Origin: a virus
Direction: 5' to 3' (one strand)
IMG/VR virus record: IMGVR_UViG_3300009502_000034
Location: 14,566-78,565 of that record
DNA length: 64,000 nt
Shown: piece after piece, positions 11,116 to 59,338 of the stretch
Position numbering within the stretch: position 1 is the stretch's first letter
Layout of the letters: each line of letters opens with the position of its first letter
Translations under genes and position numbers: made by a program
Notes under the pieces: generated by a model
Seen by the model: the letters and a program-made list of their open reading frames with translations, nothing else
Told to the model about the DNA's origin: nothing
Database searches by the model: none

Positions 11116-11871
11116 ATGGATTTTGAAAAGAGATGTAAGATTTGTCATAGAACCATCCCACTTAGTAAGATCTACTGTTCTATGAGTTGTATGAAGATTG
11201 GTATAAGTCAAAAACTTAAGGGTATCAACAAGGTTAATCATTTTGTTTCCAAGTGTGAGGTATGTGGTAAAGAGTATAATAATGTTGAGGGAACTAAATT
11301 TAGAAAAACCTGTTCCACTAAGTGCAAACAAAAGTTAACAGGCATAACTAATAAGAAAAATGGATTAATGGTCTGGAATAAAGGGTTGACAAAGAAAGAT
11401 TCTAGAGTTAGAAAATACATAGATGCGATTAAGAAGAGATTTCCAAAAGGCACCCACTATAACATTGGAAGAGTTTATTCAGAAGAACGAAATAATAAAA
11501 TATCTAAGAGCCTAAAAGGCGTCCCACTAAGCAAAGAACATAGAAGAATTCTTAGTATTTCTAAGGGCGGGGACGGAACTCCAGTTAAGGGATATGGAGT
11601 TGAATTCAACTACGATTTAAAAGAAATGATTCGTGATAGAGATGAAAGAAGATGTCAAAAATGTGGTGTACCAGAGGTGGAATGTATGACCAAGTTACCG
11701 ATACATCACATAGACTATAACAAGAAAAATAACAGTGATGTGAATTTAATAGCATTATGTACAACCTGTCACCCTAAGACCAACTCTAATAGGAAGTATT
11801 GGGAAGAATATTTTACCCAATTAATGATATCTAAAATAAGTTTCACGAACCCGAACCCAAGGAGATTTTAA
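11116..11871 (+). CDS. HNH homing endonuclease (zinc ribbons + NUMOD3-like + HNH)
   Basis: CKIC/CSMSC and CEVC/CSTKC modules; WNKGLTK; RDERRCQKCG...IHHIDYNKKNN...LCTTCH. Confidence 0.85.
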   Translation: MDFEKRCKICHRTIPLSKIYCSMSCMKIGISQKLKGINKVNHFVSKCEVCGKEYNNVEGTKFRKTCSTKCKQKLTGITNKKNGLMVWNKGLTKKDSRVRKYIDAIKKRFPKGTHYNIGRVYSEERNNKISKSLKGVPLSKEHRRILSISKGGDGTPVKGYGVEFNYDLKEMIRDRDERRCQKCGVPEVECMTKLPIHHIDYNKKNNSDVNLIALCTTCHPKTNSNRKYWEEYFTQLMISKISFTNPNPRRF

Positions 11872-14800
11872 TGCCTAAAGAAGATCCCAAGATTGATAAG
11901 AGTCTCATTAAGAAGCTTAATGCCTCTAAACCAATAGGGATAAGGGCTGGATTTCACCGTCAATCTGCTGAAGACATAGCTGATAAGATTACAATGGCTA
12001 GAGATAAACAAACCGCAAAGGGGTTCTCTAGGCAGGCCAATGATATGAGCTTCCAGTCCACCGGTGGCGCTGATAGAGTGCCGCTGCTTTACATGGACCC
12101 ACTTTTCGACCCAGTAATAATGATGTTCCCCAAGGACAATGTTAGGGAACTCAATAGACGTTTGCGCCATTATTATCAGTATAATCCGTATATCAGAAAT
12201 ATTATAGATCTCCACAGTGAGCTCCCGCTTAGTGATTTTGATCTGAAGTGCGAAGACCCAGCCATAGAAAAATACTATAACGAATTTAAACAGCGCAAGC
12301 AGGTTCTTGAAACTTTTATCATGATGTCTAAGGACTATTGGCTTCTTGGCGAAGGCATGATGTATGGTAATTGGGATGAGTATAATAGGGAGTTTTCTTC
12401 ATTTAATCAGTATCCTCCGGAAGATGTCGAAATTAAAAACACATATCTTAATGAGTATATTTATTTAATGAAACCTAATGAAACCATCAAGAAGCAGATG
12501 CACTCCGCCGATCCCATAGACATGAAGTTAAATGATGTCCTTGAGGCCGAGATGCCAGATTTTTATAACAAGATGATGTCAGGTCAGCCATACATTTTTA
12601 ATAATTCCAGATTCATGCACTTAGCTAGAAGGCCGAATAAATATACACCAAGGGGCGTCAGTCCCGTGCTTTCGATAGTAAAAGATCTCATGTATGAAGA
12701 TAAGCTTAGAATGCTGTTGATGACGTTTGTTGACAGGCACGTATTCCCTATTAAAATATTTAAAATTGGTTCTGAGGCAAAGGGATGGGTTCCACCTCCG
12801 TCAAAGATGAAGGAATTTGAGAATCTATTACTACAAGCCTGTTTCCCAGAAGATATAACAGAGATATTGACCGATTCAGGATTTAAGAAACACTGGGAAA
12901 TCACTGACACCGATAAACTTGCGACAGTTAACCCAACAACTGGATTGATGATGTATGAAAAACCATCTAAGAAGTACGTGTATGACTGGTCAGATGATGG
13001 TGCTGTTCATGAAGATAATGGACTAGAACCAGAAGCTGTTGGGGCGACCATCGAGTCTTTAAGGAAACTAGGTAAAGCCATTGGACTTGATAGTTATGAA
13101 AAGATTCCCCAATATGTTTCTAGTCTTAAAAGACCATATATAAAAGCCTTTATTGACTCCTTCCTTTCAGAAAGAAAAGTATATTATAGATCAGATATTT
13201 CTGCCAAGGAACTAAGACTTAGAAATATTGACATGGTAGATAGTTTAAAACAATTATTCTTAACATTAGGATATAAGGCTAGGGTATTGCATAATGAATA
13301 TCAGGGCGTCATGGCATACAATCTACAGTGGGTGGATTACGGAACAGATTTAATACACTTTAAAACAGAATCAGTAGATTGTGTTGTGACCCCTAATCAT
13401 AGGATGCTGGTAAAAGATTATAGAAATGATGGTGAATGGAAAGCCAAAGAAGCCTATGAAGTAAAAACGGGTGACCAATTTAGAACGTATGTTGATGGGG
13501 TGGAAGATAATATTGAAGTACCAAAAACATATAGGCTTGGTAAATACGATATAGATATGAAGGATTTTGTTGAACTGATTGGATATGTTGTGACAGAAGG
13601 TGGAATAGACGCTAAGAATAGAAGAACAGTCATAACACAGTCATCCTCAGCTAACCAAGATATATGTGAAAAAATAAAATCCTGCCTAGACAGAAGTGGG
13701 ATATCATATAGAGTGCATTCAAGAGATTTTGAAAGTACGCTCAAGGGAAAGAAATATAAAAATAAATTAAATGATTATGTAATCAATGATGTGGATATTA
13801 CTAATCAATTGTCTTTATTGCTTGGTGTTAAGACAAAAGAAAAACATCTTCCAAATATTGTAAAGAATTTACCTAAAGAATATTTACAAATTCTTTTTGA
13901 TGCTATGATTGATGGTGATGGTACGATAATAAAATCTAATCTTGGAGATTACAATAGATTCTATTTCTACCCATCATCTGATGAGCTAGCGAAAGATTTC
14001 CAGGAAATATGCTTTAAACTAGGGTTTAACTCTAGTTGTAGAGAAAGATTTATGAAGAGTCCATCATCTGAAAAAATATTGAGAAGTTTAAGAATAAATA
14101 TTGTTAAGAGAGATGGAAAGAAAATTAAGAAAAATTTTGAGCCTGTGATTTATAAAAAATCACAAGTTACAAAAGAAAAATATTCTGGAAAAGTTTTTTG
14201 TTATGATGTTGGAGCGAACCACACGCTCATTGTTAGACAGAATGGAAAAATTCTAATCACGATGAACAGCAACGATCCTGATTTTAATATAGTGACTCAC
14301 CCATTCGTTAATGTGGATTACGTGGTTGGTAATGATAAGATCATGGATGTCACAGCCCATATGGATTGGGTTGCTAAACGTTACATGGTAGGGCTCTTTG
14401 TTAATGACACCGTTCTTCATGGTGAACTTGGCACGTATGCTGCTCAATCAGTGAGTTTAAAAGTACTCATGAATAAATATATGGCGTTTAGAGAATCCGT
14501 ATCAGGTTTATCAATAGATAAAATATTTAAACCGCTTGCTGTTGCTCGTGGTTTTAAAAAGAGAAAACAAGCAGATTTAGATCATAACGTAAGAACAACT
14601 GCTGATGAATATGATGTACCAAAAGTATTCTGGAGAAGGATGAACCTTCTTAACAGCAGAGACCTTATGGAGATGGTATCACGTCTTAGAGAAAACGGTG
14701 AAGTTCCGTTTAAATACGTCGCTGATATATTCGATTGGGATGTTGAGGGGATTAAGAACGGGTTTAAAGAAGAAGAGGGCACGTCTCTTGATAAGCTTTG

Positions 14801-15182
14801 GAGAGATATAAGGATTAAGAAGAGCGAAGATCCCAACATCGCAAGTCAGATTTTAGACGGCACTAAGACTGAAGATTTAAAAATACCCAAAGTAAAACTA
14901 GAGACTCAGGAAGAAAAAGATGGAGTGATGGCGGAAGAGCCAGCAGCTCTTTCTAATATGAAGACAGACTTGCTTGGCGGTCCTATGGGCGGTGGTGGTA
15001 CACCCCCTCCGCCACCGATACCCGGCGCAGAATCATTAGAGGCTCCAGGCCCATCAGCGGAAGCTGAAGCCGGAAAAAAGACAGGCGTTAATGGCCTAGA
15101 AGAAGCTGTTGGTGGACCGACAGAATCTAAGCTTCCTGGTGAACAAGGGTCTGCGGAAGCCGGCGGACCACCAGCACTATAA
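11871..15182 (+). CDS. portal protein (intein-containing)
   Basis: YYQYNPYIRNIIDLHSELP, YWLLGE, HLARR...RGVSP portal-like motifs; low-complexity P/G/E C-tail; position before protease and capsid. Confidence 0.8.
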   Translation: MPKEDPKIDKSLIKKLNASKPIGIRAGFHRQSAEDIADKITMARDKQTAKGFSRQANDMSFQSTGGADRVPLLYMDPLFDPVIMMFPKDNVRELNRRLRHYYQYNPYIRNIIDLHSELPLSDFDLKCEDPAIEKYYNEFKQRKQVLETFIMMSKDYWLLGEGMMYGNWDEYNREFSSFNQYPPEDVEIKNTYLNEYIYLMKPNETIKKQMHSADPIDMKLNDVLEAEMPDFYNKMMSGQPYIFNNSRFMHLARRPNKYTPRGVSPVLSIVKDLMYEDKLRMLLMTFVDRHVFPIKIFKIGSEAKGWVPPPSKMKEFENLLLQACFPEDITEILTDSGFKKHWEITDTDKLATVNPTTGLMMYEKPSKKYVYDWSDDGAVHEDNGLEPEAVGATIESLRKLGKAIGLDSYEKIPQYVSSLKRPYIKAFIDSFLSERKVYYRSDISAKELRLRNIDMVDSLKQLFLTLGYKARVLHNEYQGVMAYNLQWVDYGTDLIHFKTESVDCVVTPNHRMLVKDYRNDGEWKAKEAYEVKTGDQFRTYVDGVEDNIEVPKTYRLGKYDIDMKDFVELIGYVVTEGGIDAKNRRTVITQSSSANQDICEKIKSCLDRSGISYRVHSRDFESTLKGKKYKNKLNDYVINDVDITNQLSLLLGVKTKEKHLPNIVKNLPKEYLQILFDAMIDGDGTIIKSNLGDYNRFYFYPSSDELAKDFQEICFKLGFNSSCRERFMKSPSSEKILRSLRINIVKRDGKKIKKNFEPVIYKKSQVTKEKYSGKVFCYDVGANHTLIVRQNGKILITMNSNDPDFNIVTHPFVNVDYVVGNDKIMDVTAHMDWVAKRYMVGLFVNDTVLHGELGTYAAQSVSLKVLMNKYMAFRESVSGLSIDKIFKPLAVARGFKKRKQADLDHNVRTTADEYDVPKVFWRRMNLLNSRDLMEMVSRLRENGEVPFKYVADIFDWDVEGIKNGFKEEEGTSLDKLWRDIRIKKSEDPNIASQILDGTKTEDLKIPKVKLETQEEKDGVMAEEPAALSNMKTDLLGGPMGGGGTPPPPPIPGAESLEAPGPSAEAEAGKKTGVNGLEEAVGGPTESKLPGEQGSAEAGGPPAL
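12840..14267 (+). mobile_element. intein with LAGLIDADG endonuclease in portal (476 aa)
   Basis: block A CFPEDITEILT; block B VTPNHRML; LIGYVVTEGG and FDAMIDGDG; ends VFCYDV...TMN followed by Ser +1. Confidence 0.88.
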
Positions 15183-21569: not shown

Positions 21570-22458
21570 AGACAGTAGTATGGCGCTTTTACGGGAAACC
21601 GTAACCGAAACGTGAAATATGCTAGGAACTCCTTAGAGCCTCAACCACCGAAGAGTTAAAGTGTTGAGGATTGGACAACCAGCAGGAGGTTCAAGATGGG
21701 ACATAAAAGAGTAAACAATCTCGCAATGACTTATGAGTTGGGATATGTGATAGGCGTATATTTTGGCGATGGTAGCATATGCAGTAGTGCCACCGAACAA
21801 AATAAGGGCAAGTCCTGGTTCTCTTTAACTACTATAGATTTAGAGTTTGCAGAGTATGTTAAAGAGTGTTTGTCTATGTTTGTTGGTCCAATAGAAGGCG
21901 GGATCAATCACTACATAGATAAGAGATCTGGGAGAAAGCCGCAGAATCACTTGAGGGTAACTGCTTCAGATTTCTGTAGAGCAATATCGACAATCACAAT
22001 GAATAAGACAAAGATACCAGAGATCGTTTACAATCATCAATCAGTCAAACAAGGTTTCATAGAAGGCTTCCTTGATTCTGAGGGATGGGTAAGCAAAACT
22101 AAAGAAATTTGTAACAATCCAAAATCTAAGTATTATGGACACAATCAATATAGAATAGGTTTTGGTTGTACAAATAAAGAAGTAATGAAGATAATGGGAA
22201 ACTTTCTTTTTGAGTTTGGAGTTCAGATAAATCAGATGAATGAGGCTCCAATACCGTCAGGAAAGACATTTTATCGTTACTTCATGAATATAGATAGTTT
22301 TGTTAACTCACCGCTCAAGTTCATAATTAAGAGGAAGCAAGATAGATTGATTGAATATAAAAGTCTTATCACCTCCCCAGAGACTACCAATCACAGCCCG
22401 CAGAAATAGGGTTAAGGTATAGTCCGATCTTCATAGAAATATGAAGCTAACAGAAATG
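21570..22458 (+). mobile_element. group I intron (889 nt) in major capsid gene
   Basis: P1 CGCU|A pairs with UGGCG giving U.G at the splice site; R CAGAGACTA 22378-86, S AAGGTATAGTCC 22414-25, P9 CTTCATA-GAAA-TATGAAG, terminal G 22458. Confidence 0.88.
21696..22409 (+). CDS. intron-encoded LAGLIDADG homing endonuclease
   Basis: YVIGVYFGDGS and FIEGFLDSEGW motifs; AGGAGG RBS inside the intron. Confidence 0.9.
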   Translation: MGHKRVNNLAMTYELGYVIGVYFGDGSICSSATEQNKGKSWFSLTTIDLEFAEYVKECLSMFVGPIEGGINHYIDKRSGRKPQNHLRVTASDFCRAISTITMNKTKIPEIVYNHQSVKQGFIEGFLDSEGWVSKTKEICNNPKSKYYGHNQYRIGFGCTNKEVMKIMGNFLFEFGVQINQMNEAPIPSGKTFYRYFMNIDSFVNSPLKFIIKRKQDRLIEYKSLITSPETTNHSPQK

Positions 22459-23226
22459 ATGCAGGTCCCTCTTAAGAACCGTCTTGACTACGTGGCAATC
22501 GGCCGTAACAGAATGATCCTCGTAGACGAAATACCTCAGGGTGAGGTGCCAATATACGACCTTGATATTCCTGAATTCGGCGCCGTTACTATCGCTTCTC
22601 GTGGAGAACCACCCCACTTTCAAACGAACATCAAAAGGCTCCAGTTCCCCACTTTCCCTCTTACCATCGATCATGAGTTGAAATGGGAAGAGATTCAGAT
22701 TCGTAGATATCCTGCATTTGATAGGGCGAAGGAACGTGTTGCCATATCAATGGCTATTGCAGAAGACGATCTGATAATCTCCACGCTTGCAACCGCAGTA
22801 AAGAACGGTCCCAACACTTCGTTCACAGCTTCTTCCGTGACAAGGTATGCTATAGCGGATGCTTTCAAACAGATCCTCAGCAACCAGTTAATAGTCGGCG
22901 GAATTGCGATGAACCCAGCGCAGTATGCGGACATTCTTAAATGGAATACCAGCGACCTTGACCAGGTTTCCGTAAATACCATAATCGAGACTGGGCTTTT
23001 CGGCTCAATCTTTGGTTCCAAAATGATGGTCTCCACCAGGATACCAGCAGGAACAGTTTATGTTTTTACTACTCCTGACAAGCTCGGAAGGCTTCCAGAA
23101 CGTAAGGGTGTTGAAGTCAAGATATTTGACAACATACCTAGGGCGCAATATGATATAGTTGGTTTCGAGCAGATCGGAATCGGCATTCATAATACGGCCG
23201 GCATTACCAGCTTTACGATCGCTTAA
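22459..23226 (+). CDS. major capsid protein (HK97 fold), exon 2; spliced product 325 aa
   Basis: PLKNRLDY..IGR, FPTF, DRAKE...AEDD, MNPAQYADI, G.IFGSKMMVSTRIPAGTVY, EQIGIGIHN capsid-like motifs; strong terminator follows. Confidence 0.85.
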   Translation: MQVPLKNRLDYVAIGRNRMILVDEIPQGEVPIYDLDIPEFGAVTIASRGEPPHFQTNIKRLQFPTFPLTIDHELKWEEIQIRRYPAFDRAKERVAISMAIAEDDLIISTLATAVKNGPNTSFTASSVTRYAIADAFKQILSNQLIVGGIAMNPAQYADILKWNTSDLDQVSVNTIIETGLFGSIFGSKMMVSTRIPAGTVYVFTTPDKLGRLPERKGVEVKIFDNIPRAQYDIVGFEQIGIGIHNTAGITSFTIA

Positions 23227-29214: not shown

Positions 29215-29385
29215 ATGGCAGACGTAAATAATGTAATTGTAATAAATTCTCAAATGAACAAGGCTGATGCACAGAGACTTTTGACAGCGCTTCAAAATGA
29301 AGTAGCCAATTGGGATACGATTAAAGCCAAGCAATTAGCGGATATTCAAGCAAGAATAGTTGCGCTGCAAGCAGCGTTAGTGTAA
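29215..29385 (+). CDS. 56 aa helical protein upstream of rSAM gene (not in ORF track)
   Basis: AGGAGG RBS; MADVNNVIVINSQMNKADAQRLL...QAALV*. Confidence 0.6.
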   Translation: MADVNNVIVINSQMNKADAQRLLTALQNEVANWDTIKAKQLADIQARIVALQAALV

Positions 29386-29407
29386 AGTCTTAACTATAGG
29401 AGCCGAA

Positions 29408-30574
29408 GTGAGACTAAATACAATTGATTTAATGCTTACAAATTCATGTAATTTAAGATGTGCTTTCTGTTATATAGGTCAGAATCAGCATGATATAATT
29501 TCACAAGAAGATGAGATCAAACGCAACATAGCAACATGTGAATGGGTTTTATCTCAATATCGTGTATCTATGTCAGAGGTTGACCCACAATATAGAATAA
29601 TAAACTTTAATCTATATGGTGGTGAACCTACAATGGCATGGGAAAGTGTTAAAGCTTTAGTAGAATGGCGTAAAACTGTGTCAGATATAAATATTCAGAT
29701 GGGCTTAGTTACTAACATGGTTTTAATGGATGAAGCTAAGATAGACTATTGTATAGCGAATAATGTAGGAATTCACCCATCTATAGACGGTTGTAAATCG
29801 GCCGAAGATATGTATAGGATAACTGCCGATGGAAGTACGGTATCTGATAAGGTATTTGCCAATGCTAAAGTTTTAACTAGTAAACTTAAAGGTCGTAGTT
29901 GCAGATCTACTATAGACCCTAAGACTGCTCCATTTATGTTTGAATCTGTTAAATTTGTAACGCAAGAACTTGGTTTTACAACAGTAAACCAAGTATTGGC
30001 CGGTGGAGTAGATTGGAAAGACTCAGATATAGAAGTTGTCAAGACTCAATCTAGATTGATAACAGATTGGTGGTTAGATCAAATGCGTGTTGGAAAACAT
30101 TATTCTTTATATTATATAAGGAATATGCTAACAGGCATTTGGAATCCAATTCGCAGAAGAGGATTATGTTCAAGCGGTGTTAGTCATGCTGCTATAGACA
30201 CAGATGGTAATATTTATCCATGTCATAGATTTTGCGGAGGCACAACACCTCCTGAATATTTAATGGGTAATATCCATACTGGTGGAGTAGTAAATAAAGA
30301 ATTAGAAGATAAATTAAAAAATTTTGATTTAGCCAAATACCATAAAGACAAATGTAGTGGATGTATAGCAGTTAATTCTTGTATGGCTTTGTGCTTACAT
30401 GAGATGATGTTAAATGGAAGTATGTTTGAGCCTTTACCTCATTATTGCAAACTGTGGCCGTTTTATTATGCAGAAGCAATGAGAGCACACGCAATAATGG
30501 ACGCAGAGAGAAATCAGTTGTATTACCAAATCTATCGTCCAAGACCTGCTCAAAATCAGGTTAGGAGAAACTAA
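29408..30574 (+). CDS. radical SAM/SPASM-domain peptide/protein maturase (anSME/ranthipeptide-maturase-like)
   Basis: CNLRCAFC (CxxxCxxC), YGGEP, SIDG; SPASM cysteines CSSG...DGNIYPCHRF...CSGC...CMALC...YC; no N-terminal RRE. Confidence 0.93.
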   Translation: MRLNTIDLMLTNSCNLRCAFCYIGQNQHDIISQEDEIKRNIATCEWVLSQYRVSMSEVDPQYRIINFNLYGGEPTMAWESVKALVEWRKTVSDINIQMGLVTNMVLMDEAKIDYCIANNVGIHPSIDGCKSAEDMYRITADGSTVSDKVFANAKVLTSKLKGRSCRSTIDPKTAPFMFESVKFVTQELGFTTVNQVLAGGVDWKDSDIEVVKTQSRLITDWWLDQMRVGKHYSLYYIRNMLTGIWNPIRRRGLCSSGVSHAAIDTDGNIYPCHRFCGGTTPPEYLMGNIHTGGVVNKELEDKLKNFDLAKYHKDKCSGCIAVNSCMALCLHEMMLNGSMFEPLPHYCKLWPFYYAEAMRAHAIMDAERNQLYYQIYRPRPAQNQVRRN

Positions 30575-31854
30575 TGGCCTGTGTAACAAACGATTTAGTA
30601 TATGGCGGACCTTGTAGTTATTGTGACCAAGGCCCCTGCATTTTCTGTGACCAAGGCCGTTGCTCTTCTTGCGACCAAGCCACCTGCTACTCTTGTGACC
30701 AAAGCACTTGCAGTGTTTGTGACCAAGGTAAATGCTCTGCTGGAGACAATGGCTGTTGTAATTATTTAGATGCAGGTAAGTGTAGTTTATCAGATTCTGG
30801 AATATGCTCTGGAAACGATTCTGGTAAATGTAGTAATGGTGACCAAAATTTTTGTAGTAATTGTGACCAAGGACGTTGCTGGAATGGAGATGTAGGCCCT
30901 TGTGTTGGTTGGGACATCGGCCCCTGCTCGTATTGCGACCAAGCCTCTTGTTCTGTCTGCGACCAAGGCCCCTGCTCTTCTTGCGACCAAGCCCGTTGCT
31001 CTTCTTGTGACCAAGCTCGTTGTGCTGGCTGTGACCAAGGCCCCTGCTCTTCTTGTGACCAAGCCGCTTGCCCACATTGTGACCAAGCCTCTTGTTCTGT
31101 CTGCGACCAATGGTCTCACTGCCCTAACGACATCGGCCCCTGCTCGTATTGTGACCAGGCTTCTTGCACAGGATGTGACCAAGGGAAATGTTCAGGTTGT
31201 GACCAGGCTTCTTGCACAGGATGTGACCAAGGGAAATGTTCAGGTGGGGACCAGGCTTATTGCGTAGGATGTGACCAAGGGAAATGTTCAGGTTGTGACC
31301 AGGCTTCTTGCTCAAATTGTGACCAAGCTCGTTGTGCTTCGTGTGACCAAGGCCCCTGCTCTTCTTGCGATCAACGCTGGTGCTCTTCTTGCGACCAAGG
31401 CTATTGTGTTGGCTGTGACATCGGATATTGTATAAACTGTGACCAAGGGAAATGTAGTGGTGTAGACCAAGGGAAATGTTCTGCTGGAGATATTGGGCCA
31501 TGTAGAAATACTGATGCAGGTATTTGTTCTGCTTGTGATGAAGGACATTGTAGCAATGGAGATAATGGTTTATGTTTATTGTGTGATGATAGTCCATGTA
31601 AAATTAATGATATTACTGATTGGCCTTGCTCTCAAAATGATTCTGGAAAGTGTTCAAGTTGTGACCAAGGTTATTGTACAAACTGTGACCAAGGGAAATG
31701 TAGTGGTGAAGACCAAGGGAAATGTGCTGCTGGAGATGTTGGACCTTGTACTAACTGCGACCAAGGTCCTTGCTTAGCAATGGATGTAGGCGGTTGTACG
31801 GCAAGCGACATGCCAGTTTATTTAATTATGACTAATGTAAAAAAAAATAGATAA
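30574..31854 (+). CDS. Cys-rich 8-residue repeat protein with 50 C-x3-D motifs; probable substrate of the adjacent rSAM enzyme
   Basis: TAATG coupling to rSAM; consensus unit G/A-x-C-x-x-C/G/N-D-Q counted by hand. Confidence 0.85.
   Translation: MACVTNDLVYGGPCSYCDQGPCIFCDQGRCSSCDQATCYSCDQSTCSVCDQGKCSAGDNGCCNYLDAGKCSLSDSGICSGNDSGKCSNGDQNFCSNCDQGRCWNGDVGPCVGWDIGPCSYCDQASCSVCDQGPCSSCDQARCSSCDQARCAGCDQGPCSSCDQAACPHCDQASCSVCDQWSHCPNDIGPCSYCDQASCTGCDQGKCSGCDQASCTGCDQGKCSGGDQAYCVGCDQGKCSGCDQASCSNCDQARCASCDQGPCSSCDQRWCSSCDQGYCVGCDIGYCINCDQGKCSGVDQGKCSAGDIGPCRNTDAGICSACDEGHCSNGDNGLCLLCDDSPCKINDITDWPCSQNDSGKCSSCDQGYCTNCDQGKCSGEDQGKCAAGDVGPCTNCDQGPCLAMDVGGCTASDMPVYLIMTNVKKNR
30607..31812 (+). repeat. 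24 nt-period coding tandem repeat array
   Basis: recurring TGTGACCAAGG / TGCGACCAAG every 24 nt. Confidence 0.85.
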
Positions 31855-31861
31855 TGGAGGC

Positions 31862-32197
31862 GTGATGAATTTTCTTGGCGCATCATATTTTTATATATCA
31901 GTTTTTAACATAATTGTGGGGTTGTATATGATGATCTCATTTATGAGAAATTATTTTACTCTAAAAAATTTTTTAAACACGTCTAAAATTATTGATCGTA
32001 GACGTGGTGGTTTAATAATGTTGGAAATTATGATTTTGCTATCATTTTCCATTTGGTCTCACGGGACAATAGCAATCATTAATATGTTTGATAAGGTGTA
32101 CAATTTTGGTCAATTTACACATGTGTTATGGTTTGTACCAGCCATAGCCATTATGATTGCTTTAATTAAAATGGTAACAATTTCTACAAAAGGATAA
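31862..32197 (+). CDS. small membrane protein (about 3 TM)
   Basis: three hydrophobic segments; GGAGG RBS. Confidence 0.6.
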   Translation: MMNFLGASYFYISVFNIIVGLYMMISFMRNYFTLKNFLNTSKIIDRRRGGLIMLEIMILLSFSIWSHGTIAIINMFDKVYNFGQFTHVLWFVPAIAIMIALIKMVTISTKG

Positions 32198-32199
32198 AT

Positions 32200-32505
32200 A
32201 TGCCTGGTAAAAACGACATAAGCGTATTGCTGTTAAACCAAATATCTACAATGGTCGCTGCCTCAAATGCATCTGCTGAGGAGACCAAAAAGGCTCTTAT
32301 AGCTGTTAGGGATTTAACGGACAGACAAAACGTGTTGCTTGCAGAGATTTTGGCAGGGCAAAAACAATTCCAGTCTCTAACCGTGAGATATGGTGCGTAT
32401 TTTGTTATAGTTCTTTTTCTTATTATAGCAGGATTATTGATGGCCCTAAATGTGAAAGGCGCAGATACAATTTCCAATGTTATAGCTAAGGTGGTAACAA
32501 AATGA
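32200..32505 (+). CDS. coiled-coil plus single-TM protein (holin/XhlA-like architecture)
   Basis: N-terminal heptads, C-terminal YFVIVLFLIIAGLLMAL. Confidence 0.45.
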   Translation: MPGKNDISVLLLNQISTMVAASNASAEETKKALIAVRDLTDRQNVLLAEILAGQKQFQSLTVRYGAYFVIVLFLIIAGLLMALNVKGADTISNVIAKVVTK

Positions 32506-32711
32506 TAAAGCAGTATAATCTAAAGAAGAGAGGGAAAAATATGACTAGCGTGGACATACAAAAGTTTGTAAATAGGGCCAACATAACTGTAAAAGCAATG
32601 AAAAAGAATACGGAGGAAATGGCAGGTATAAACGACGACTTGCGTGAGGCCATATGCACAGTAGAACAACTATCCCAAGCGTTTACCGGGAAAATAAAGA
32701 ATGGTAAATAA
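32502..32711 (+). CDS. small hypothetical protein (start probably at MTSVD)
   Basis: GAGGG RBS before the internal ATG; overlaps the ligase start. Confidence 0.4.
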   Translation: MIKQYNLKKRGKNMTSVDIQKFVNRANITVKAMKKNTEEMAGINDDLREAICTVEQLSQAFTGKIKNGK

Positions 32712-35700
32712 TGCGCTAGAAATAGCTGCATTCCGTAAAGACATTATCAAGTTAAATCCTATATCTCAAATGTTAACTGAGTACAAGGATAATCTTGATA
32801 TGAAGCTTTACACATTCGATGAATTGAAAACCTTTATTGGTAATCAAAAAGCAACAGTATCGATCAAAATTGATGGAGAAATATGTCTGTCTGGAGATAC
32901 ATCAGTTAAGTTGTTGGACGGCACACATAAAACCGTTAAACAGTTATATGATCTCGGCGCTAAAGATTTTTACGTCTATAGTATAGATCAACAACAGGCT
33001 GTTGTCCCCGGTAGGTGTTCATCAGTTGTGTTAACCGGTAAAAATAAAAAGGTGTTAAAAATAACACTAGATAATGGTGAATTTTTTAAGTGCACCGAGA
33101 ACCATAAAATCATGTTAAGAAATGGCGAATATATAGAAGCTAAAGCATTAGTTGCCGGGGCATCTTTAATGCCGTTATATACGAGAATCTCTATTAGGGA
33201 AGATCATAAGGGAATAGTTGGTTACGAGATGTGCTATAATCTCACAACTGATAAATGGGAATGGACTCATAAAATGGTGGCTCAAAGCATATATGAGGGC
33301 ACGTTTAAAAATAAGGCCATACATCACAAAAATTTTAATAAACTTAACAACGTTCCAGATAATTTGTTAATAACCGACTGGGATGAACATGTTAAGTTGC
33401 ACAAAGAATTAGCATATAAAGGAATGATGGCATACAGAAATGATCCTGTGACTGGGCCTTTGTGGAGAGAGAGGCAAAAAAGGTCTCATTTAGCCATTTC
33501 CGATAGTAAAAGCAAAAACATTAAAATAGCATTAAGTGATCTCAGTGTTCGTAAATCTCTTTCAGAAGCCAATATTAAGGCTTGGAAAGATCCAGTTGTA
33601 AGGGCTAAGCGCTCTATTGGCATTAGCAAGGGGAATACTGGTAAGGTCAGAACACAAGAGTTTAAGGATCTCCAGAGCATTATACAAACTAAATTACAAA
33701 ACACGTCAGAATCCAAGAAAAGGAATAGTGAGAAAGCCAATGCGTTTTGGGCCTCAAACAGTGGAGTTAAGAGAAAAGCAAGAATGATTGTCAATGGCGC
33801 CGAGATTATGGCTTCTCGTTGGAAAGATGAAAATATGGTTAACAAAATGAAGCTTGGAATGGTTAATGCTTGGGCTCACAAAACCGCAGAAGAAAAATCT
33901 CTTAACGCAAAAAGGGGATGGGAAACTAGAAGGGTTAAAAAAGTAGCGGTTAATCATAAGGTAGTATCAATAGAAGAGTGTGGGTACGAAGATGTATATG
34001 ATTTAAGCATGGTTGAACCGGTGCATAACTTTGCTTTATCATGTGGAATTTTTGTGCATAATTGTGGTGTAAAATATGATGGTCAAAGAGCCATCACCTA
34101 TACCAGGGGCGGGATGATTCGTTATGACATGCCGCTCACCAAAGAGATGGAAGAAATGTTCGCTCACAATGGCATATCAGAATTTACTGGCATAGGCGAG
34201 ATGTTCGTTGTTAAAGAAGACGGCATGCCGCTGAGTTATCTTAAGGCTCAATCAATACTCAGATTGCCAAAGAACCTTGAAGAAGAATCTAGAATGAAAA
34301 TGATGATGTTTGATGTGTATAGCATTAATAATAATGTTATTATAAATAATCCATTGAGCGAGAGAATACAAAAAATACATACAATATTTAGTAAAGACGG
34401 TAAATATGTCATTCCAGCGCACTACGAAGAGAACGCAGGAATGGCAGAAATAGACAATCTTTGGAAGAAGGTCTTGGCTCCGGAAGAATATGGCTACGAG
34501 GGCCTAGTTGTTCATATTAATGATAAAATAATTAAGGTGAAGCCAATTTTGTCCTTTGATATGGTTATCGTCGCTATCAACAGGAGCAGGACTGATCCGG
34601 GGATGATAAGTGCTGTTGTAGCTTCTTTTATGGATAAGGCTGGTCATTTTAGATTCCACGGCAAGATAGGGTCAGGATTTTCCGACCATGATAGACAATT
34701 GCTTTTCAGATGGGCTGAGCAGAACAAGGTGTTTGAGGATGATACCGGGCAAATATGGGTAAATCCATTTAAACATCCGTTAATAGCTGAAATACAAGGT
34801 GAAGAGGTTAGCATCAAGGATGGCCCTGCATATAAATTTGAAAACAATAATTGGATAAGGATAGAAGATAAACTTACTGGTGTCGTAAGATACCCGGTAA
34901 TTATACAATTTAGGCCAGATAAGAGAACTACACCAAGCGATTTAAGATTGGCGCAGATACCAGGATTTCCTGAAATTAAAGCATATCTGCAAAGGGCTGG
35001 TGGCGAACCTATTCATCCAGATGCAATGGTTATCCCTCCGTCTCCTTATAACAATGAGGGATTAACTGAGCGTGATGTTTGGCAATATTACAATGATAAT
35101 AAAGAAGCAATCATCCACAATTATAAGGAGAATGAACAAGCAGTGCCTCTCAAGGCTATGATCGGTATTATGACTAATGAGGGGCTACTTTATAGGCGTA
35201 AAGACGAAAACGATAAAGAGTTAGATTTTACCAATCCATCTGAATACGATTTGAATAATACTGGTAGGACAGTCACTATGAATTTTGTTCTTGGTGATGA
35301 GGTTGACTTTATATATGTCGATGTAGACCCACAACAAGAATTTCCTCTTGAAGATACTAAGAGAATAACTGAAGAGCTGGCAGAATATTTTCAGGAAAGC
35401 GATACCATAAAAGAGGTACAAATCTTTTTTAACGGGCTTACTGGATTTCATGTATATGGCGTGCTAAAACAAGCAACCCCAATAGATGAAGCGTCAGAAA
35501 TGTTAAAAGGTATAATAAGGGAATATGTCGATTCTACTCCGGATGAAAGGATAAGTGTTGGTCAAGAGAAACAGCCAGGGACAATTAAGCTTGACATATC
35601 CACATTTCATAAAGGCGGCGGATTGAAAATACCATATTCTCTGCATGAAATTACAGGTTTAGTGTGTAAGAGGGTTGAGGATATTAAATCATTTAAATAC

Positions 35701-35763
35701 GAAGATGCTGCAGGGTATATCATGAAACAAGCAGGACTTATAAATGTTGGAGGAAAACAGTGA
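32701..35763 (+). CDS. ATP-dependent DNA ligase fused to LigD-like primase-polymerase (AEP) domain, intein-containing
   Basis: motif I KIDG, GEM, FDV, YEGLVV, KVKP, KIGSGFS, RYP..IQFRPDK; C-terminal HPD...LTERDVWQYY, YVDVDP, FNGLTGFHVY, PYSL. Confidence 0.85.
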   Translation: MVNNALEIAAFRKDIIKLNPISQMLTEYKDNLDMKLYTFDELKTFIGNQKATVSIKIDGEICLSGDTSVKLLDGTHKTVKQLYDLGAKDFYVYSIDQQQAVVPGRCSSVVLTGKNKKVLKITLDNGEFFKCTENHKIMLRNGEYIEAKALVAGASLMPLYTRISIREDHKGIVGYEMCYNLTTDKWEWTHKMVAQSIYEGTFKNKAIHHKNFNKLNNVPDNLLITDWDEHVKLHKELAYKGMMAYRNDPVTGPLWRERQKRSHLAISDSKSKNIKIALSDLSVRKSLSEANIKAWKDPVVRAKRSIGISKGNTGKVRTQEFKDLQSIIQTKLQNTSESKKRNSEKANAFWASNSGVKRKARMIVNGAEIMASRWKDENMVNKMKLGMVNAWAHKTAEEKSLNAKRGWETRRVKKVAVNHKVVSIEECGYEDVYDLSMVEPVHNFALSCGIFVHNCGVKYDGQRAITYTRGGMIRYDMPLTKEMEEMFAHNGISEFTGIGEMFVVKEDGMPLSYLKAQSILRLPKNLEEESRMKMMMFDVYSINNNVIINNPLSERIQKIHTIFSKDGKYVIPAHYEENAGMAEIDNLWKKVLAPEEYGYEGLVVHINDKIIKVKPILSFDMVIVAINRSRTDPGMISAVVASFMDKAGHFRFHGKIGSGFSDHDRQLLFRWAEQNKVFEDDTGQIWVNPFKHPLIAEIQGEEVSIKDGPAYKFENNNWIRIEDKLTGVVRYPVIIQFRPDKRTTPSDLRLAQIPGFPEIKAYLQRAGGEPIHPDAMVIPPSPYNNEGLTERDVWQYYNDNKEAIIHNYKENEQAVPLKAMIGIMTNEGLLYRRKDENDKELDFTNPSEYDLNNTGRTVTMNFVLGDEVDFIYVDVDPQQEFPLEDTKRITEELAEYFQESDTIKEVQIFFNGLTGFHVYGVLKQATPIDEASEMLKGIIREYVDSTPDERISVGQEKQPGTIKLDISTFHKGGGLKIPYSLHEITGLVCKRVEDIKSFKYEDAAGYIMKQAGLINVGGKQ
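32884..34062 (+). mobile_element. intein with HNH endonuclease in DNA ligase (393 aa)
   Basis: CLSGDT start just after KIDGEI; CTENHK block B; THKMVA...IHHKNFNKLNN HNH; VYDL...HNFAL..IFVHN followed by Cys +1. Confidence 0.92.
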
Positions 35764-54651: not shown

Positions 54652-55080
54652 ATGAAAGACTTTAAATTTTTAGGCAGTAATGACACAAAAACATATGGAA
54701 ACTTTAATGATATATCCTATGATAGTAATGGGGAGGTTGCGCTGGTTGAATCTACGGCAAAACTTAGACAGGACATGGCTAAAATATTACTGACCGATAT
54801 AGGTGAGCACAAGGTGTTTCAGGGGTATGGCAGTGACCTACAATCGTTGATTAATGCAAATGTTAAAAGTGATACCATTAAAAAACAAATAGTCAACTCA
54901 ATCACATATGCATTTTCTTACTTAAATCAGATAAATCAGTCAGCTGATTTAAATGAAAAAATAGACACTATTAACAGTATTGATGTTAGGTATGCAGCAA
55001 ATGATCCAAGGGCAATTTACATTAGGATTCAGGCTACCTCTGGAACTAATGAAACAATAACATTAACCTTCGGAGGGTAA
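54652..55080 (+). CDS. baseplate wedge protein gp25/GPW-like
   Basis: KLRQDMAKILLTDIG...YGSDL...DPRAIYIRI. Confidence 0.8.
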   Translation: MKDFKFLGSNDTKTYGNFNDISYDSNGEVALVESTAKLRQDMAKILLTDIGEHKVFQGYGSDLQSLINANVKSDTIKKQIVNSITYAFSYLNQINQSADLNEKIDTINSIDVRYAANDPRAIYIRIQATSGTNETITLTFGG

Positions 55081-55084
55081 TAGT

Positions 55085-56551
55085 ATGCTTAAGTCGTATT
55101 CTACGGCATATCAAAGCTTAGTAGCACAGATTAAAAATAGTAATAGGAATATCAATACCGGGCCTAATACAGTTATTAATGATACCTGCATTATTCCAGC
55201 GGCTCAGGAAATAGTGAGAGAAACAGCCATTGCAGATTATATACAAAGGTTACAATCGTTAGATTTAATCATCTCTATGCTTGGGGACGTCAACTATCTC
55301 TCAGTGATAGCGTTTGCCTACGGCGTTGGTGTAAACGATGTTATAAGCGATATAGAAGACTATATAGATAAGCTTGGGTCTAATTATGATTTAATACGGA
55401 GGGGAGCAGCGTCAGCAGATGGTATAGTCTATTATGCAAGATATACACCGTTAATTGCCGGAGATTCTGATATCACAATATCAACCGGGTCTATTGTGTC
55501 ATCTAAGGCAAGTGGCGTCAAATATCAGGTGGTCGCTGATGTTACTATGTATGCGGTTTCTGGTGGGACGTATTATGATTCTGATCTTCAGGCATATGCT
55601 ATTCCAGTTCCGGTACAAGCGGTTAACGCAGGGTCAGCCGGTAACGCTTCAAATAATAGCATAGATAATATGGACACAGCGACAGCGGGGATGGATTTTA
55701 TAACCAATAAGGCTCCAATAGCGAATGGGACCGATGAGGAAACAGACCTAGATTTTATAGCACGCATACGATTAGTATATTCAGGCAATAATGTTGGCAC
55801 TTTAGATGGGTATAAAAAATTGGTTCTAGAAAATAGCGCAGTTACAGATTGTTATGTGGCCGGTGCAACAGATAGTTTTATGACACGTGATCAAGGATAT
55901 GGCGGCAAGATCGATATTTACATATTAGAGAATCAGATAGCTCAGGCCGTAGCCACAGTTACGGTTGCAGCAGAGACTTTTGTGTTGCCAAATCAACCAG
56001 TGTCTTCAATAGTTAGTATTAGTGGTTATGGTGCGTTGGCCGTACCATTATTTGAAGGTAATTATAATCAGGATTATGAGGGCAGTTTATTGGCATCGGC
56101 TCGTGTGAGATGGTTAAACTTTGCCGTAAATCCGCCAACCATTCCATACACAGTGACCTATCTTTATAATAGCAATATACAGACTATACAAAATCTTGTA
56201 AATCAAGTGAAGAATAAAATAGTATTTGGGCAGTTTGATGCAGCGCTTGTAAAGCAAGCAATAGAGGCACCGGTAGATATTATATTTAGTATAGCGGTTT
56301 TAAGTGGCTATTCTAAAGCATCTGTGGCTCAACAAGTTCAAACCTTAATATCAACAACTATAGATAAATATAAAATGGGAGTAGAACTTCAACAGTCTGA
56401 TATGATAGCACTGGCTTATACAATACCAGGGCTAGATCAGGTCCATGAACCGATGGTGAAATTTAATAGAACAAGTTTAACAGGTGTTAAAGACACTATT
56501 ACTGTGTCTGGTAGAGAATATATACGTGCAGGTAATGTTATAATTTCTTAA
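55085..56551 (+). CDS. baseplate J-like protein
   Basis: AVNAGSAGN, NGTDEETD...RI, GGKIDIYI motifs. Confidence 0.85.
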   Translation: MLKSYSTAYQSLVAQIKNSNRNINTGPNTVINDTCIIPAAQEIVRETAIADYIQRLQSLDLIISMLGDVNYLSVIAFAYGVGVNDVISDIEDYIDKLGSNYDLIRRGAASADGIVYYARYTPLIAGDSDITISTGSIVSSKASGVKYQVVADVTMYAVSGGTYYDSDLQAYAIPVPVQAVNAGSAGNASNNSIDNMDTATAGMDFITNKAPIANGTDEETDLDFIARIRLVYSGNNVGTLDGYKKLVLENSAVTDCYVAGATDSFMTRDQGYGGKIDIYILENQIAQAVATVTVAAETFVLPNQPVSSIVSISGYGALAVPLFEGNYNQDYEGSLLASARVRWLNFAVNPPTIPYTVTYLYNSNIQTIQNLVNQVKNKIVFGQFDAALVKQAIEAPVDIIFSIAVLSGYSKASVAQQVQTLISTTIDKYKMGVELQQSDMIALAYTIPGLDQVHEPMVKFNRTSLTGVKDTITVSGREYIRAGNVIIS

Positions 56552-58156: not shown

Positions 58157-59338
58157 ATGGCCTGTGTAGCAAACGATTTAGTATATGGCGGACCTTGCAG
58201 TAATTGTGACCAAGGCCCCTGCACTAACAACGATCTAGGCCCTTGCACTAATCTTGACGCCGGTCTGTGTTCTAGTGGGGATTTCGGTGCATGTTCTTCC
58301 TGTGACCAAAACAGATGCTCCTTCTGTGACCAGAGTAGGTGCTTCTTATGTGACCAAGCCGCTTGTTCTGTCTGCGACCAGTGGTCTCACTGCCCTAACG
58401 ACATCGGCCCCTGCTCGTATTGCGACCAAGCCTCTTGTTCTGTCTGCGACCAAGGCCCTTGTGCTTCGTGTGACCAAGGTAAATGTTCTGCTGGAGATGT
58501 TGGGCCATGTCAACAAAATGATTCTGGAAAGTGTTCTGGTTGTGACCAGGCTTCTTGCACAGGATGTGACCAAGGGAAATGTTCAGGTGGGGACCAGGCT
58601 TCTTGCACAGGATGTGATCAAGGGATATGTAAAGGATTAGATGCAGGTATTTGTTCTGCTTGCGATGAAGGACAGTGTATAAATGGAGATAAAGGAAGCT
58701 GTTTCCAAGGAGATGACGGACATTGTGGCAGTGGAGATAATGGTTTATGTTTATTGTGTGATGATGGGCCATGTAAAATTAATGATATTACTGATTGGCC
58801 TTGCTCAAATACAGATTTAGGCCCATGTAGAAGTTGTGATGAAGGTCAGTGTTTAAATAATGATTCTACAAGATGTATCTTTACAGACGATTCTACTGTT
58901 GGCCCATGCGCTAATTGCGATCAAGGAACCTGCTCCAGTGTTGATGTGGGCCCATGTTCAACCGCAGATGCACCACCAGAACAGGTCACTGGTGTAAGTG
59001 TTTTTAAAAGTGATTTGTATGCGGTTATTAAATGGGATCCCAACACTTCAGCAGTTATCACATCATATGATATTTGGAGAACAGCCAATACTCATGGGTA
59101 CGGTTATACAAAAATTGCGACAGTCACCTCAAACGATAGCTACGGTAATAAAAATATTGTTTATGTTGATGCGGATATAAAATATAACACCCAATATTTT
59201 TATAAAATTGTAGCAACAAATACCGATGTTAGCGGAGAGTTTAGCAATGAGGCTTCAGCCGTATACGTCCCAAGTATTGCAGATTCTGATGTTCAATACC
59301 CAACTAGAAAAAACAGCAACACTAGTTATTTTAATTAA
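58157..59338 (+). CDS. Cys-rich repeat protein (32 C-x3-D motifs) fused to C-terminal fibronectin type III domain
   Basis: same MACVxNDLVYGGPC start as 30574; FN3 from ~58973: PPEQVTGV...IKWDPN...SYDIWR...YFYKIVATN...SGEFSNEASA. Confidence 0.85.
   Translation: MACVANDLVYGGPCSNCDQGPCTNNDLGPCTNLDAGLCSSGDFGACSSCDQNRCSFCDQSRCFLCDQAACSVCDQWSHCPNDIGPCSYCDQASCSVCDQGPCASCDQGKCSAGDVGPCQQNDSGKCSGCDQASCTGCDQGKCSGGDQASCTGCDQGICKGLDAGICSACDEGQCINGDKGSCFQGDDGHCGSGDNGLCLLCDDGPCKINDITDWPCSNTDLGPCRSCDEGQCLNNDSTRCIFTDDSTVGPCANCDQGTCSSVDVGPCSTADAPPEQVTGVSVFKSDLYAVIKWDPNTSAVITSYDIWRTANTHGYGYTKIATVTSNDSYGNKNIVYVDADIKYNTQYFYKIVATNTDVSGEFSNEASAVYVPSIADSDVQYPTRKNSNTSYFN

What the first reader, a model, noticed from the sequence alone, without database searches (positions are those of the whole stretch)
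29215..31854. Phage radical SAM/SPASM enzyme coupled to a 426 aa leaderless substrate with 50 C-x3-D motifs (a giant ranthipeptide-like protein)
Seen: the rSAM/SPASM gene stop overlaps the ATG of a protein built almost entirely of 8-residue units x-x-C-x-x-(C/G/N/x)-D-x. Only Cys3 and Asp7 are invariant, giving 50 C-x3-D motifs plus one C-x2-D. The second Cys is often replaced, so the conserved signal is C-x3-D rather than CxxC. The first motif is already at residues 3-7, so there is no leader peptide, and the enzyme has no N-terminal RRE. Established: PapB (freyrasin maturase, rSAM/SPASM) forms Cys-S to Asp-C-beta thioethers at CX3D motifs, and QhpD makes Cys-Asp/Glu thioethers within a protein. 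Inference: the phage uses RiPP-type chemistry to install up to ~50 thioether staples in a protein encoded in its virion gene region, giving a rigid, protease-resistant fibre. The 56 aa ORF at 29215 could be an accessory factor. I know of no described equivalent in phages.
Basis: partly seen in the sequence, partly recalled or inferred. Interest (0 to 1): 0.93.

Follow-up and report, generated by a model that had tools for sequence, protein, structure and literature searches.

The report
Phage enzyme-stapled cysteine–aspartate repeat proteins
A freshwater phage pairs a radical-SAM enzyme of the thioether-forming kind with proteins built from dozens of 8-residue Cys-x3-Asp units, so it probably welds these tail-associated proteins with sulfur–carbon bridges, which I found described for no virus.

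Summary
Window 29408-30574 encodes a radical SAM/SPASM enzyme with no RRE. Its stop overlaps the ATG of a 426-aa protein with 50 C-x3-D motifs at period 8; shuffles give 10.2 +/- 2.7. A 393-aa paralogue (58157-59338, array plus FN3-like domain) lies between baseplate-wedge and tail-fibre genes.

The enzyme belongs to a tight, metagenome-only clade. Arrays lie beside it in 12 of 18 close loci and in 0 of 100 control loci. All four near-complete viral genomes found by searching with the array carry the enzyme.

Over 430 units from 18 proteins:
- Cys1 is 100% and Asp5 99.3% (never Glu); Cys4 is 67%.
- When Cys4 is present, position 6 is Q/E/D in 283 of 286 units, a second covarying pair.

PapB, the CX3D thioether maturase, is the best NCBIfam match for the window enzyme (best E-value across the 32 clade members too), but below its cut-off.

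Arrays are fused to LamG, FN3 and a large tail protein near the tape measure. One bacterial-looking locus has a Tat signal.

Best reading (about 0.6): leader-independent Cys-Asp thioether stapling of phage tail or fibre modules. The chemistry is inferred, not shown.

Earlier notes of this scan describe other phage radical-SAM plus Cys-repeat fibres on other DNA, but not this octad family. The closest published precedent is archaeal CrpA/CrpC (2026).

The parts
29215..29385 (+). 56-aa small predicted helical protein upstream of the enzyme; role unknown
   Evidence: AGGAGG ribosome-binding site. No family match. A homologue lies upstream of the enzyme in L018, where a second similar small ORF sits between the enzyme and the array. 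No similar small ORF was noticed in the more distant loci inspected.
29408..30574 (+). Radical SAM/SPASM enzyme, 388 aa, no RRE; putative Cys-Asp thioether (ranthionine) synthase
   Evidence: CX3CX2C at residues 14-21 and 7 invariant SPASM Cys. NCBIfam PapB 156 bits, E 1.2e-45, below the cut-off of 340. Best solved structure is CteB 5WGG, E 7e-43, aligned from chain residue 96. The clade has 33 close relatives at 42-74% identity, then a cliff to 25%.
30574..31854 (+). 426-aa protein made of 50 C-x3-D octads; putative substrate, translationally coupled to the enzyme
   Evidence: No Pfam or NCBIfam family. ATG overlaps the enzyme's stop codon.
58157..59338 (+). 393-aa paralogue: same N-terminus, 32 C-x3-D motifs, then an FN3-like domain; lies in the baseplate and tail-fibre block
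   Evidence: Found by a search of the window's own genome, 60-78% identity in pieces. Translation. Pfam fn3 E 7.6e-04, below the gathering score. AF2 gives a weak 7-strand sandwich at residues 279-370. Neighbours are baseplate wedge genes (55085-56551, phrog_6, 2.4e-28; 54652-55080, phrog_43) and a tail fibre gene (59351-61342, phrog_8469).

Best explanation
The phage makes a leader-independent radical SAM/SPASM enzyme without an RRE. In the host cytoplasm this enzyme converts the Cys1/Asp5 pair of each 8-residue unit (C-x-x-[C/G]-D-x-G-x) into a Cys-S to Asp-C-beta thioether (ranthionine) ring. The result is a chain of dozens of small macrocycles.

Two thirds of the units carry a second Cys at position 4 that covaries with Q/E/D at position 6 of the same unit. 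This probably marks a second link or a ligand pair.

The array is a portable module. It stands alone (426 aa) or is fused to FN3, LamG, NHL-like or large tail-protein domains. It most likely serves as a redox-insensitive, protease-resistant stalk or spacer in tail, baseplate or fibre proteins that are assembled in a reducing cytoplasm but must work outside the cell.

Shown: the anatomy, the two-way gene linkage, the residue conservation and covariation, the family placement of the enzyme, and the tail-gene context of several arrays. Inferred: that the enzyme acts on the arrays, the kind of bond, the second link, and the mechanical role.
For: 1. Linkage from the enzyme side. Period-8 C-x3-D arrays lie on the same strand next to the enzyme in 12 of 18 close metagenome loci and in L006. 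Gene order can be either way and GC ranges from 33% to 66%. There are none in 100 control loci (896 kb) around distant SPASM enzymes.

2. Linkage from the array side. An array-profile scan of IMG/VR gave 5 records. All 4 that are at least 79% complete, including 3 complete genomes with terminal repeats (39.6, 60.2 and 200.9 kb), carry the enzyme clade.

3. Conservation. With the register set by Cys periodicity alone, 427 of 430 units in 18 proteins have Asp at +4 and never Glu. Cys4 is present in only 67%.

4. Second pair. Q/E/D at position 6 goes with Cys4 of the same unit (odds ratio 185, Fisher p 1e-47). It shows no association with Cys4 of the neighbouring units.

5. Enzyme placement. The two best NCBIfam matches of the window enzyme, PapB and QhpD, both make Cys-Asp/Glu thioethers, and all 32 clade members match both models, PapB with the best E-value. 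PapB acts on six CX3D motifs at Asp C-beta, accepts Cys-Xn-Asp with n = 0-6, and works in vitro without a leader or an RRE; its native motif is CSANDA (PMC9413430, PMC12715619). This resembles phage units such as CSAGD and CSNGD.

6. No RRE and no shared leader.

7. Translational coupling.

8. Structural context.
- The paralogue lies between baseplate wedge and tail fibre genes.
- In L097 the order is tape measure (E 1e-55), a 312-aa gene, then a 1270-aa tail protein ending in the array, followed by the enzyme.
- L006 has a LamG-array fusion.

9. The array in L019 has a twin-arginine signal, which fits maturation in the cytoplasm before export.

10. Precedent. CrpC installs ranthionines on the repeat protein CrpA (PMC13692751).
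Against: - No chemical evidence exists: no mass, structure or proteomic data.
- The enzyme scores well below the PapB equivalog cut-off (156 against 340 bits). It is a separate clade whose product cannot be read from sequence.
- CxxC in two thirds of the units would also suit metal binding.
- Gln, the commonest residue at position 6, has no carboxylate, which PapB needs.
- One 4-kb locus (L021) has the enzyme without an adjacent array.
- The 426-aa gene itself is not in a proven structural block; a DNA-ligase-like gene follows it.
- L020 and L023 arrays end in a hydrophobic helix, and L019 looks bacterial, so not every array is a virion part.
- Repeat units are not independent samples, so the p-values are inflated.
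- The array searches had limited sensitivity. Arrays without the enzyme could have been missed.
Confidence: 0.6

Rival explanations
1. The arrays are metal-binding or disulfide-stabilised solenoids or knuckles, with CxxC and Asp/Glu as ligands for Zn, Fe or Ca. The neighbouring radical SAM enzyme has another or only an auxiliary task.
For: 67% of units are CxxC, followed by D and Q/E/D and then Gly. This recalls rubredoxin or DnaJ-type knuckles. A Tat signal (L019) is also typical of cofactor-loaded proteins. AF2 predicts no autonomous fold, as expected for a metal-dependent fold too.
Against: - Cys1 and Asp5 stay invariant in the 33% of units that lack Cys4.
- Isolated CxxC units flanked by non-CxxC units are common, for example the alternating pattern in P0063. 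Adjacent-pair Cys4 sites would often be incomplete.
- There is no Pfam hit to any zinc-finger or DnaJ Cys-rich model.
- This model does not explain the two-way, translationally coupled linkage with a PapB-like enzyme.
Confidence: 0.15
2. The enzyme does modify the arrays, but by a different chemistry. Options are a sactionine (C-alpha) link, a link from Cys to a residue other than Asp5, modification of Asp itself, or oxidation of Cys to formylglycine.
For: The clade is distinct and below every curated cut-off. SPASM enzymes of similar sequence make C-alpha, C-beta or C-gamma thioethers, C-C links or formylglycine. The Cys4 to Q/E/D6 covariation shows that more than one pair is under selection.
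Against: - The two best-scoring families both form Cys-Asp/Glu thioethers.
- The invariant pair has exactly the CX3D spacing of PapA (PMC9413430).
- The anaerobic sulfatase maturase scores lower, and its C/S-x-P/A-x-R motif (from my own knowledge) is not seen in the array sequence.
Confidence: 0.15
3. The stand-alone arrays are not virion parts. They would be exported or membrane-anchored products, or multi-core precursors that are cut into many small cyclic peptides.
For: L019 has a Tat signal in a bacterial-looking context (three TPR proteins and DUF480). L020 and L023 arrays end in a hydrophobic C-terminal helix. Small membrane-protein genes follow the array in the window and in L027.
Against: - No protease or transporter gene is conserved beside the cassette.
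- There are no cleavage motifs between units.
- Many arrays are covalently fused to LamG, FN3, NHL-like or tail-protein domains.
- The paralogue lies inside the baseplate block.
Confidence: 0.07

Closest known systems
PapB/PapA (freyrasin ranthipeptide system, Paenibacillus polymyxa; NCBIfam NF047865)
   Same: The enzyme is a radical SAM/SPASM protein and the substrate carries repeated Cys-X3-Asp motifs. PapB links Cys S to Asp C-beta, tolerates variable sequence around the motif, and works in vitro without a leader or RRE (PMC9413430, PMC12715619). It is the best-scoring curated family for the phage enzyme.
   Different: - The score is 156 bits against a cut-off of 340, so this is a separate clade.
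- The phage enzyme has no RRE at all.
- The substrate is a protein of 230 to more than 1200 aa with 8-67 motifs at strict period 8, not a leader-plus-core peptide with 6 motifs.
- It has an extra covarying Cys4 to Q/E/D6 pair.
- It is fused to virion-type domains and is phage-encoded.
CrpC/CrpA of Methanococcus voltae (TIGR04463; Dieter et al. 2026, PMC13692751)
   Same: A SPASM radical SAM enzyme installs ranthionine links on a full-size, cysteine-rich repeat protein encoded next to it. Its SPASM domain also has seven Cys.
   Different: - CrpC has an RRE, and CrpA has a 47-residue leader-like N-terminus.
- The repeat is 17 residues, present 10 times, with a C-X-X-Q/D motif.
- The system is archaeal and cellular.
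- TIGR04463 matches only 18 of 32 clade members, and weakly.
QhpD/QhpC (maturation of quinohemoprotein amine dehydrogenase; TIGR03906)
   Same: A SPASM enzyme makes Cys-Asp/Glu thioethers inside a protein subunit. It is the second-best NCBIfam match of the window enzyme, at 124 bits.
   Different: The score is far below the cut-off of 453. According to my own knowledge, not tested here, QhpC is a small subunit with three links and a leader. It has no repeat array.
CteB/CteA (SCIFF, thermocellin; PDB 5WGG/5WHY)
   Same: It is the closest solved structure (E 7e-43), with the same radical SAM and SPASM core.
   Different: CteB has an N-terminal RRE; the match starts at its residue 96. According to my own knowledge, its substrate is a short six-Cys peptide and the acceptor is Thr C-gamma.

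Membership tests
PapB family ranthipeptide maturase (NF047865, equivalog) | Whole-protein score at or above the curated cut-off (340 bits) | tested here: not met
   156.2 bits, E 1.2e-45. The best clade member reaches E 2.7e-62. All 32 members match, and this is the best E-value of any family.
PapB family ranthipeptide maturase (NF047865, equivalog) | Radical SAM CX3CX2C motif plus a SPASM domain with 7 Cys | tested here: met
   C14, C18 and C21 are present. C254, C272, C316, C319, C325, C329 and C347 are invariant in 32 sequences.
PapB family ranthipeptide maturase (NF047865, equivalog) | N-terminal RiPP recognition element (PapB residues 1-85, PMC12715619) | tested here: not met
   The radical SAM motif starts at residue 14, and at residues 6-29 in 29 of 32 clade members. 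Matches to CteB, QhpD and the SCIFF maturase start at their positions 92-100.
PapB family ranthipeptide maturase (NF047865, equivalog) | Neighbouring substrate with Cys-X3-Asp motifs | tested here: met
   There are 50 motifs in the coupled gene. Asp follows Cys at +4 in 427 of 430 units across 18 proteins.
PapB family ranthipeptide maturase (NF047865, equivalog) | Product is a Cys S to Asp C-beta thioether | not testable with these tools
   This needs mass spectrometry or NMR of co-expressed proteins.
RiPP (ranthipeptide) in the strict sense | Short precursor with a leader peptide and a core, released by proteolysis | tested here: not met
   Arrays begin at residues 2-8 or lie at the C-termini of proteins of 230-1270 aa. 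They share no common leader and no protease gene is conserved nearby.
TIGR04463 (CrpC-type) protein ranthionine synthase | Match to the family model | tested here: not met
   The model is not among the 25 best families for the window enzyme. 18 of 32 clade members match at E 1e-10 or better, and the best is 4.4e-18.
Anaerobic sulfatase maturase (TIGR03942) | Score at or above the cut-off (349 bits) | tested here: not met
   82.9 bits. PDB 4K37 scores E 2.3e-22, weaker than CteB.
DnaJ-type or zinc-knuckle Cys-rich repeat | Match to a Pfam zinc-finger or CXXCXGXG model | tested here: not met
   No Pfam family at E up to 0.1 for the 426-aa protein. The other array proteins match only fn3, Laminin_G_3 or NHL outside the array.

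The most novel reading that the evidence does not exclude
Phages build a previously unknown protein material. It would be a chain of up to about 50-70 consecutive thioether macrocycles, possibly two interlocked rings per octad (Cys1-Asp5 and Cys4-Q/E/D6). A processive radical SAM enzyme without leader or RRE would write them directly onto tail, baseplate or fibre proteins in the cytoplasm. This would be the most densely cross-linked ribosomal protein known and the first enzymatically stapled virion component.
Probability: 0.35. Interest if true: 0.9.

Novelty: new variant of a known kind. Interest (0 to 1): 0.8.

Why it matters
Thioether (ranthionine) formation by radical SAM enzymes is known from small peptides, from one enzyme subunit and, since 2026, from one archaeal repeat protein. 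I found no paper that describes it for a virus or for a virion protein.

If the reading is right, some phages solve a general problem in a new way. Disulfides cannot form in the reducing cytoplasm where particles assemble. A dedicated enzyme could install irreversible, redox-proof cross-links before lysis.

For enzymology, the system offers a natural PapB-like enzyme that is free of leader and RRE and acts on a minimal 8-residue tag repeated up to about 67 times. That makes it attractive for peptide and protein stapling. The Cys4 to Q/E/D6 covariation also gives a clear, testable prediction of a second cross-link.

For phage biology, it adds a post-translational chemistry to tail-fibre architecture.

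Tried and rejected
The contexts of the 33 enzyme relatives and of the array proteins found by protein search could therefore not be fetched directly.

Searches with little or no result:
- The search for related loci with single proteins found nothing in viral contigs: the enzyme, the array and P0062. P0067 only found known records again.
- The 20-sequence array alignment A2 was too variable for a scan.
- The genome-contig scan with the array profile used one narrow pattern and found nothing. This is weak evidence of absence.
- The search for homologous proteins with the array returned 4 proteins and missed the query's own paralogue.
- hmmsearch of A2 against 1.84 billion representatives gave 115 hits. 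Only about 16-18 are true CxxCD[QE]G arrays; the rest are perfect tandem repeats in unrelated proteins. Neither search gives a usable family size.
- The search with the C-terminal domain of the paralogue found nothing.
- The ESM Atlas gave no usable hit.
- PHROGs gave nothing for most neighbours of the arrays in L006, L020 and L031.

Structure prediction:
- AlphaFold2 of the array-FN3 protein reached pLDDT 37.6.
- AlphaFold2 of a 56-aa array segment with an alignment reached pLDDT 39.6 with no secondary structure.
- Neither model gives usable geometry, so no fold search was run.

Other:
- No RNA holder was listed among the sequencing runs.
- I rejected the long minus-strand ORFs within the array as genes.
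- I rejected the 56-aa ORF as a conserved accessory factor. It recurs only in L018.
Full report
**1. Observation**

ORF listing and translation confirm three co-oriented genes.
- A 56-aa ORF lies at 29215-29385 with an AGGAGG site.
- A 388-aa radical SAM/SPASM protein lies at 29408-30574. It uses a GTG start after AGGAG and has CNLRCAFC at residues 14-21. Pfam gives Radical_SAM at 3.6e-08 and SPASM at 1.4e-04.
- A 426-aa protein lies at 30574-31854. Its ATG shares a base with the enzyme's TAA stop.

The 426-aa protein has 83 Cys and 53 Asp. It contains 50 C-x3-D motifs, with spacing 8 in 46 of 49 intervals, plus one C-x2-D. Composition-preserving shuffles give 10.2 +/- 2.7 motifs and a longest period-8 run of 4, against the observed 50 and 21.

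The units have diverged at the DNA level. 48 of 50 are distinct, mean pairwise identity is 53%, and both Cys and both Asp codons are used. Conservation therefore acts on the residues.

The stretch recurs in lake and freshwater metagenomes. It occurs near-identically in at least nine such runs from four studies. In four of them, one per study, contigs together cover nearly all of it without length variants.

**2. A second array and the genome**

A search of the window's own record, an IMG/VR virus of 78.5 kb that CheckV puts at about 50% complete, found a paralogue at 58157-59338. It has the same N-terminus (MACVANDLVYGGPC), 32 C-x3-D motifs and then an FN3-like domain. The FN3 evidence is Pfam E 7.6e-04, below the gathering score, and a weak 7-strand sandwich in AF2.

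PHROGs identify the phage as a myovirus:
- portal at 11871
- protease region at 17324
- major head protein at 22441
- tail sheath at 43224
- baseplate wedge at 54652 and 55085
- tail fibre at 59351

The paralogue lies between the wedge genes and the fibre gene. The enzyme and the 426-aa gene lie after the head genes and before a ligase-like gene. Their structural context is therefore weaker.

**3. The enzyme**

The best NCBIfam match of the window enzyme is PapB, the CX3D ranthipeptide maturase, at 156 bits against a cut-off of 340. QhpD follows at 124 bits and the SCIFF maturase at 119. The anaerobic sulfatase maturase scores 83. All 32 clade members match the PapB model, with the best E-value of any family (2.7e-62).

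The closest solved structure is CteB (E 7e-43). The match starts at CteB residue 96, which is after its RRE. In 29 of 32 clade members the CX3CX2C motif starts at residues 6-29, so lack of an RRE is a property of the clade. Seven SPASM Cys are invariant, and an eighth (C276) is present in 26 of 32.

The clade is sharply bounded. There are 33 proteins at 42-74% identity, all from metagenomes, and then a drop to 25%. A profile scan of one genome for each of 185,579 prokaryote species found nothing above 29% identity.

**4. Linkage, tested both ways**

From the enzyme side, a profile scan of metagenome contigs gave 18 close loci (L018-L035) and 61 distant SPASM loci.
- A six-frame scan for at least 4 consecutive period-8 C-x3-D units found arrays next to the enzyme, on the same strand, in 12 of the 18 close loci and in the IMG/VR locus L006.
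- The array is upstream in some loci and downstream in others, and GC ranges from 33% to 66%.
- There were none in 100 control loci covering 896 kb.
- Of the six close loci without an array, three are tiny contigs and two lack upstream sequence. Only L021 (4 kb) has real flanks without an array.

From the array side, a scan of IMG/VR with a five-sequence array profile found five records. All four that are at least 79% complete carry the enzyme clade. Three of them are complete genomes with terminal repeats, of 39.6, 60.2 and 200.9 kb. The fifth record is a 5.7-kb fragment.

**5. What is conserved in the unit**

I set the register by Cys periodicity alone and pooled 430 units from 18 proteins.

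| Position | Residue | Frequency |
|---|---|---|
| 1 | Cys | 100% |
| 4 | Cys | 67% (otherwise mostly Gly) |
| 5 | Asp | 99.3% (never Glu) |
| 7 | Gly | 78% |

A new point concerns position 6.
- When Cys4 is present, position 6 is Q, E or D in 283 of 286 units.
- When Cys4 is absent, position 6 is variable, with Q at 22%.
- The association is with Cys4 of the same unit (odds ratio 185, Fisher p 1e-47). It is absent for the previous or next unit (p 0.36-0.50).

Units are not independent samples, so the p-value is inflated, but the pattern holds in every protein. There are thus two covarying pairs. Cys1-Asp5 is obligatory and Cys4-[QED]6 is optional. Isolated CxxC units flanked by non-CxxC units are common, which argues against obligatory Cys4 metal sites formed by adjacent units.

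**6. Architecture**

Arrays are modular.
- At the N-terminus: the two window proteins, L018, L020, L023 and P0062.
- At the C-terminus: after a LamG domain in L006 (Pfam 1.7e-14), after NHL-like domains in P0063 and P0065, and after Pro/Ser or Thr linkers in P0064, L030 and L032.
- In the middle of the protein: P0067.

In the complete 60-kb genome behind L097, the gene order is tape measure protein (E 1e-55), a 312-aa gene, then a 1270-aa protein ending in about 40 units. The enzyme follows directly across the terminal repeat.

L020 and L023 arrays end in a hydrophobic helix. The L019 array carries a twin-arginine signal and sits among TPR and DUF480 genes on a contig that looks bacterial, with an enzyme 65% identical to the phage one. 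The system is therefore mainly, but not only, viral.

**7. Mechanism**

Published work on PapB (PMC9413430, PMC12715619) shows the following.
- PapB forms Cys S to Asp C-beta links in six CX3D motifs.
- It tolerates Cys-Xn-Asp with n = 0-6.
- It is active in vitro without a leader or an RRE.
- Its native motif is CSANDA.

CrpC shows that a SPASM enzyme can put ranthionines on a repeat protein (PMC13692751).

The most economical reading is that the phage enzyme recognises the unit itself and closes a Cys1-Asp5 ring in each unit. Cys4-[QED]6 would be a second link or a ligand pair. The product would be a redox-proof stalk in tail, baseplate or fibre proteins. None of this chemistry is shown. AF2 predicts no autonomous fold for the array. 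That is compatible with this reading but is not evidence for it.

**8. Rivals**

- Metal or disulfide solenoid (0.15).
- A different chemistry on the same substrate (0.15).
- An exported product or a multi-core precursor rather than a virion part (0.07).

**9. Novelty**

Four literature searches found no description of radical-SAM thioether maturation of a phage protein. A cyanophage paper only lists a 'radical SAM maturase' as an antibiotic gene (PMC12801897).

Earlier notes of this scan report other phage radical SAM plus Cys-repeat fibre systems with different motifs on other DNA. None has this octad family. Those notes are unchecked AI notes and I did not use them as evidence.

Relative to published knowledge, this is a new variant of a known kind.

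**10. Limits**

The array searches had limited sensitivity. No reference sequences were available for a tree.

Noticed in passing
window 32701-35763: A 1020-aa ORF after the array cassette looks by eye like an ATP-dependent DNA ligase interrupted by an intein (CLSGDT ... VHNC) and followed by a further large domain. I ran no family search on it.
   Followed up: no
window 11871-15182: The portal gene (phrog_16240, residues 56-323) carries an endonuclease-like insert at residues 569-764 (phrog_4645). This suggests an intein or a homing-endonuclease insertion.
   Followed up: partly
window 21696-23226: The major head protein ORF at 22441-23226 matches only positions 60-313 of phrog_2522. An HNH or endonuclease-like ORF at 21696-22409 lies just upstream. 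This fits a split or intron-interrupted capsid gene, as another first-reader note says.
   Followed up: partly
L019 4596-6926: On a contig of 62% GC with three 800-aa TPR proteins and a DUF480 protein, a 226-aa array protein with a twin-arginine signal (MKRRDFLK...) lies upstream of an enzyme 65% identical to the phage one. This is a probable cellular version of the cassette.
   Followed up: partly
L020 3824-4570; L023 1051-2055: These array proteins end in a hydrophobic C-terminal helix followed by basic residues (…FPTVLAIGLGMLGAGLLTKIKTKNI). This may be a membrane anchor.
   Followed up: no
L029 131-2830: Here the enzyme is fused to a roughly 500-aa C-terminal extension that looks by eye like a glycosyltransferase. 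Large unidentified ORFs also lie near the cassette in L030 and L031 (PHROGs found nothing for those of L031). No family search supports the glycosyltransferase guess.
   Followed up: no
L018 6798-6989 and 8222-8371: Two similar small helical ORFs flank the enzyme in the closest relative. The first is a clear homologue of window 29215-29385. Their function is unknown.
   Followed up: partly
L030, L031, L032; P0068, P0077, P0091: A shared N-terminal domain of about 45 residues (…VWVDE…GDGVY…) precedes Thr/Pro-rich linkers and short arrays in a subgroup of small phage genomes (39.6 kb with terminal repeats). It may be an anchoring domain.
   Followed up: no
window 31862-32505: Two small ORFs with predicted membrane helices (111 and 101 aa) directly follow the array gene. 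Similar small membrane ORFs follow the array in L027.
   Followed up: no
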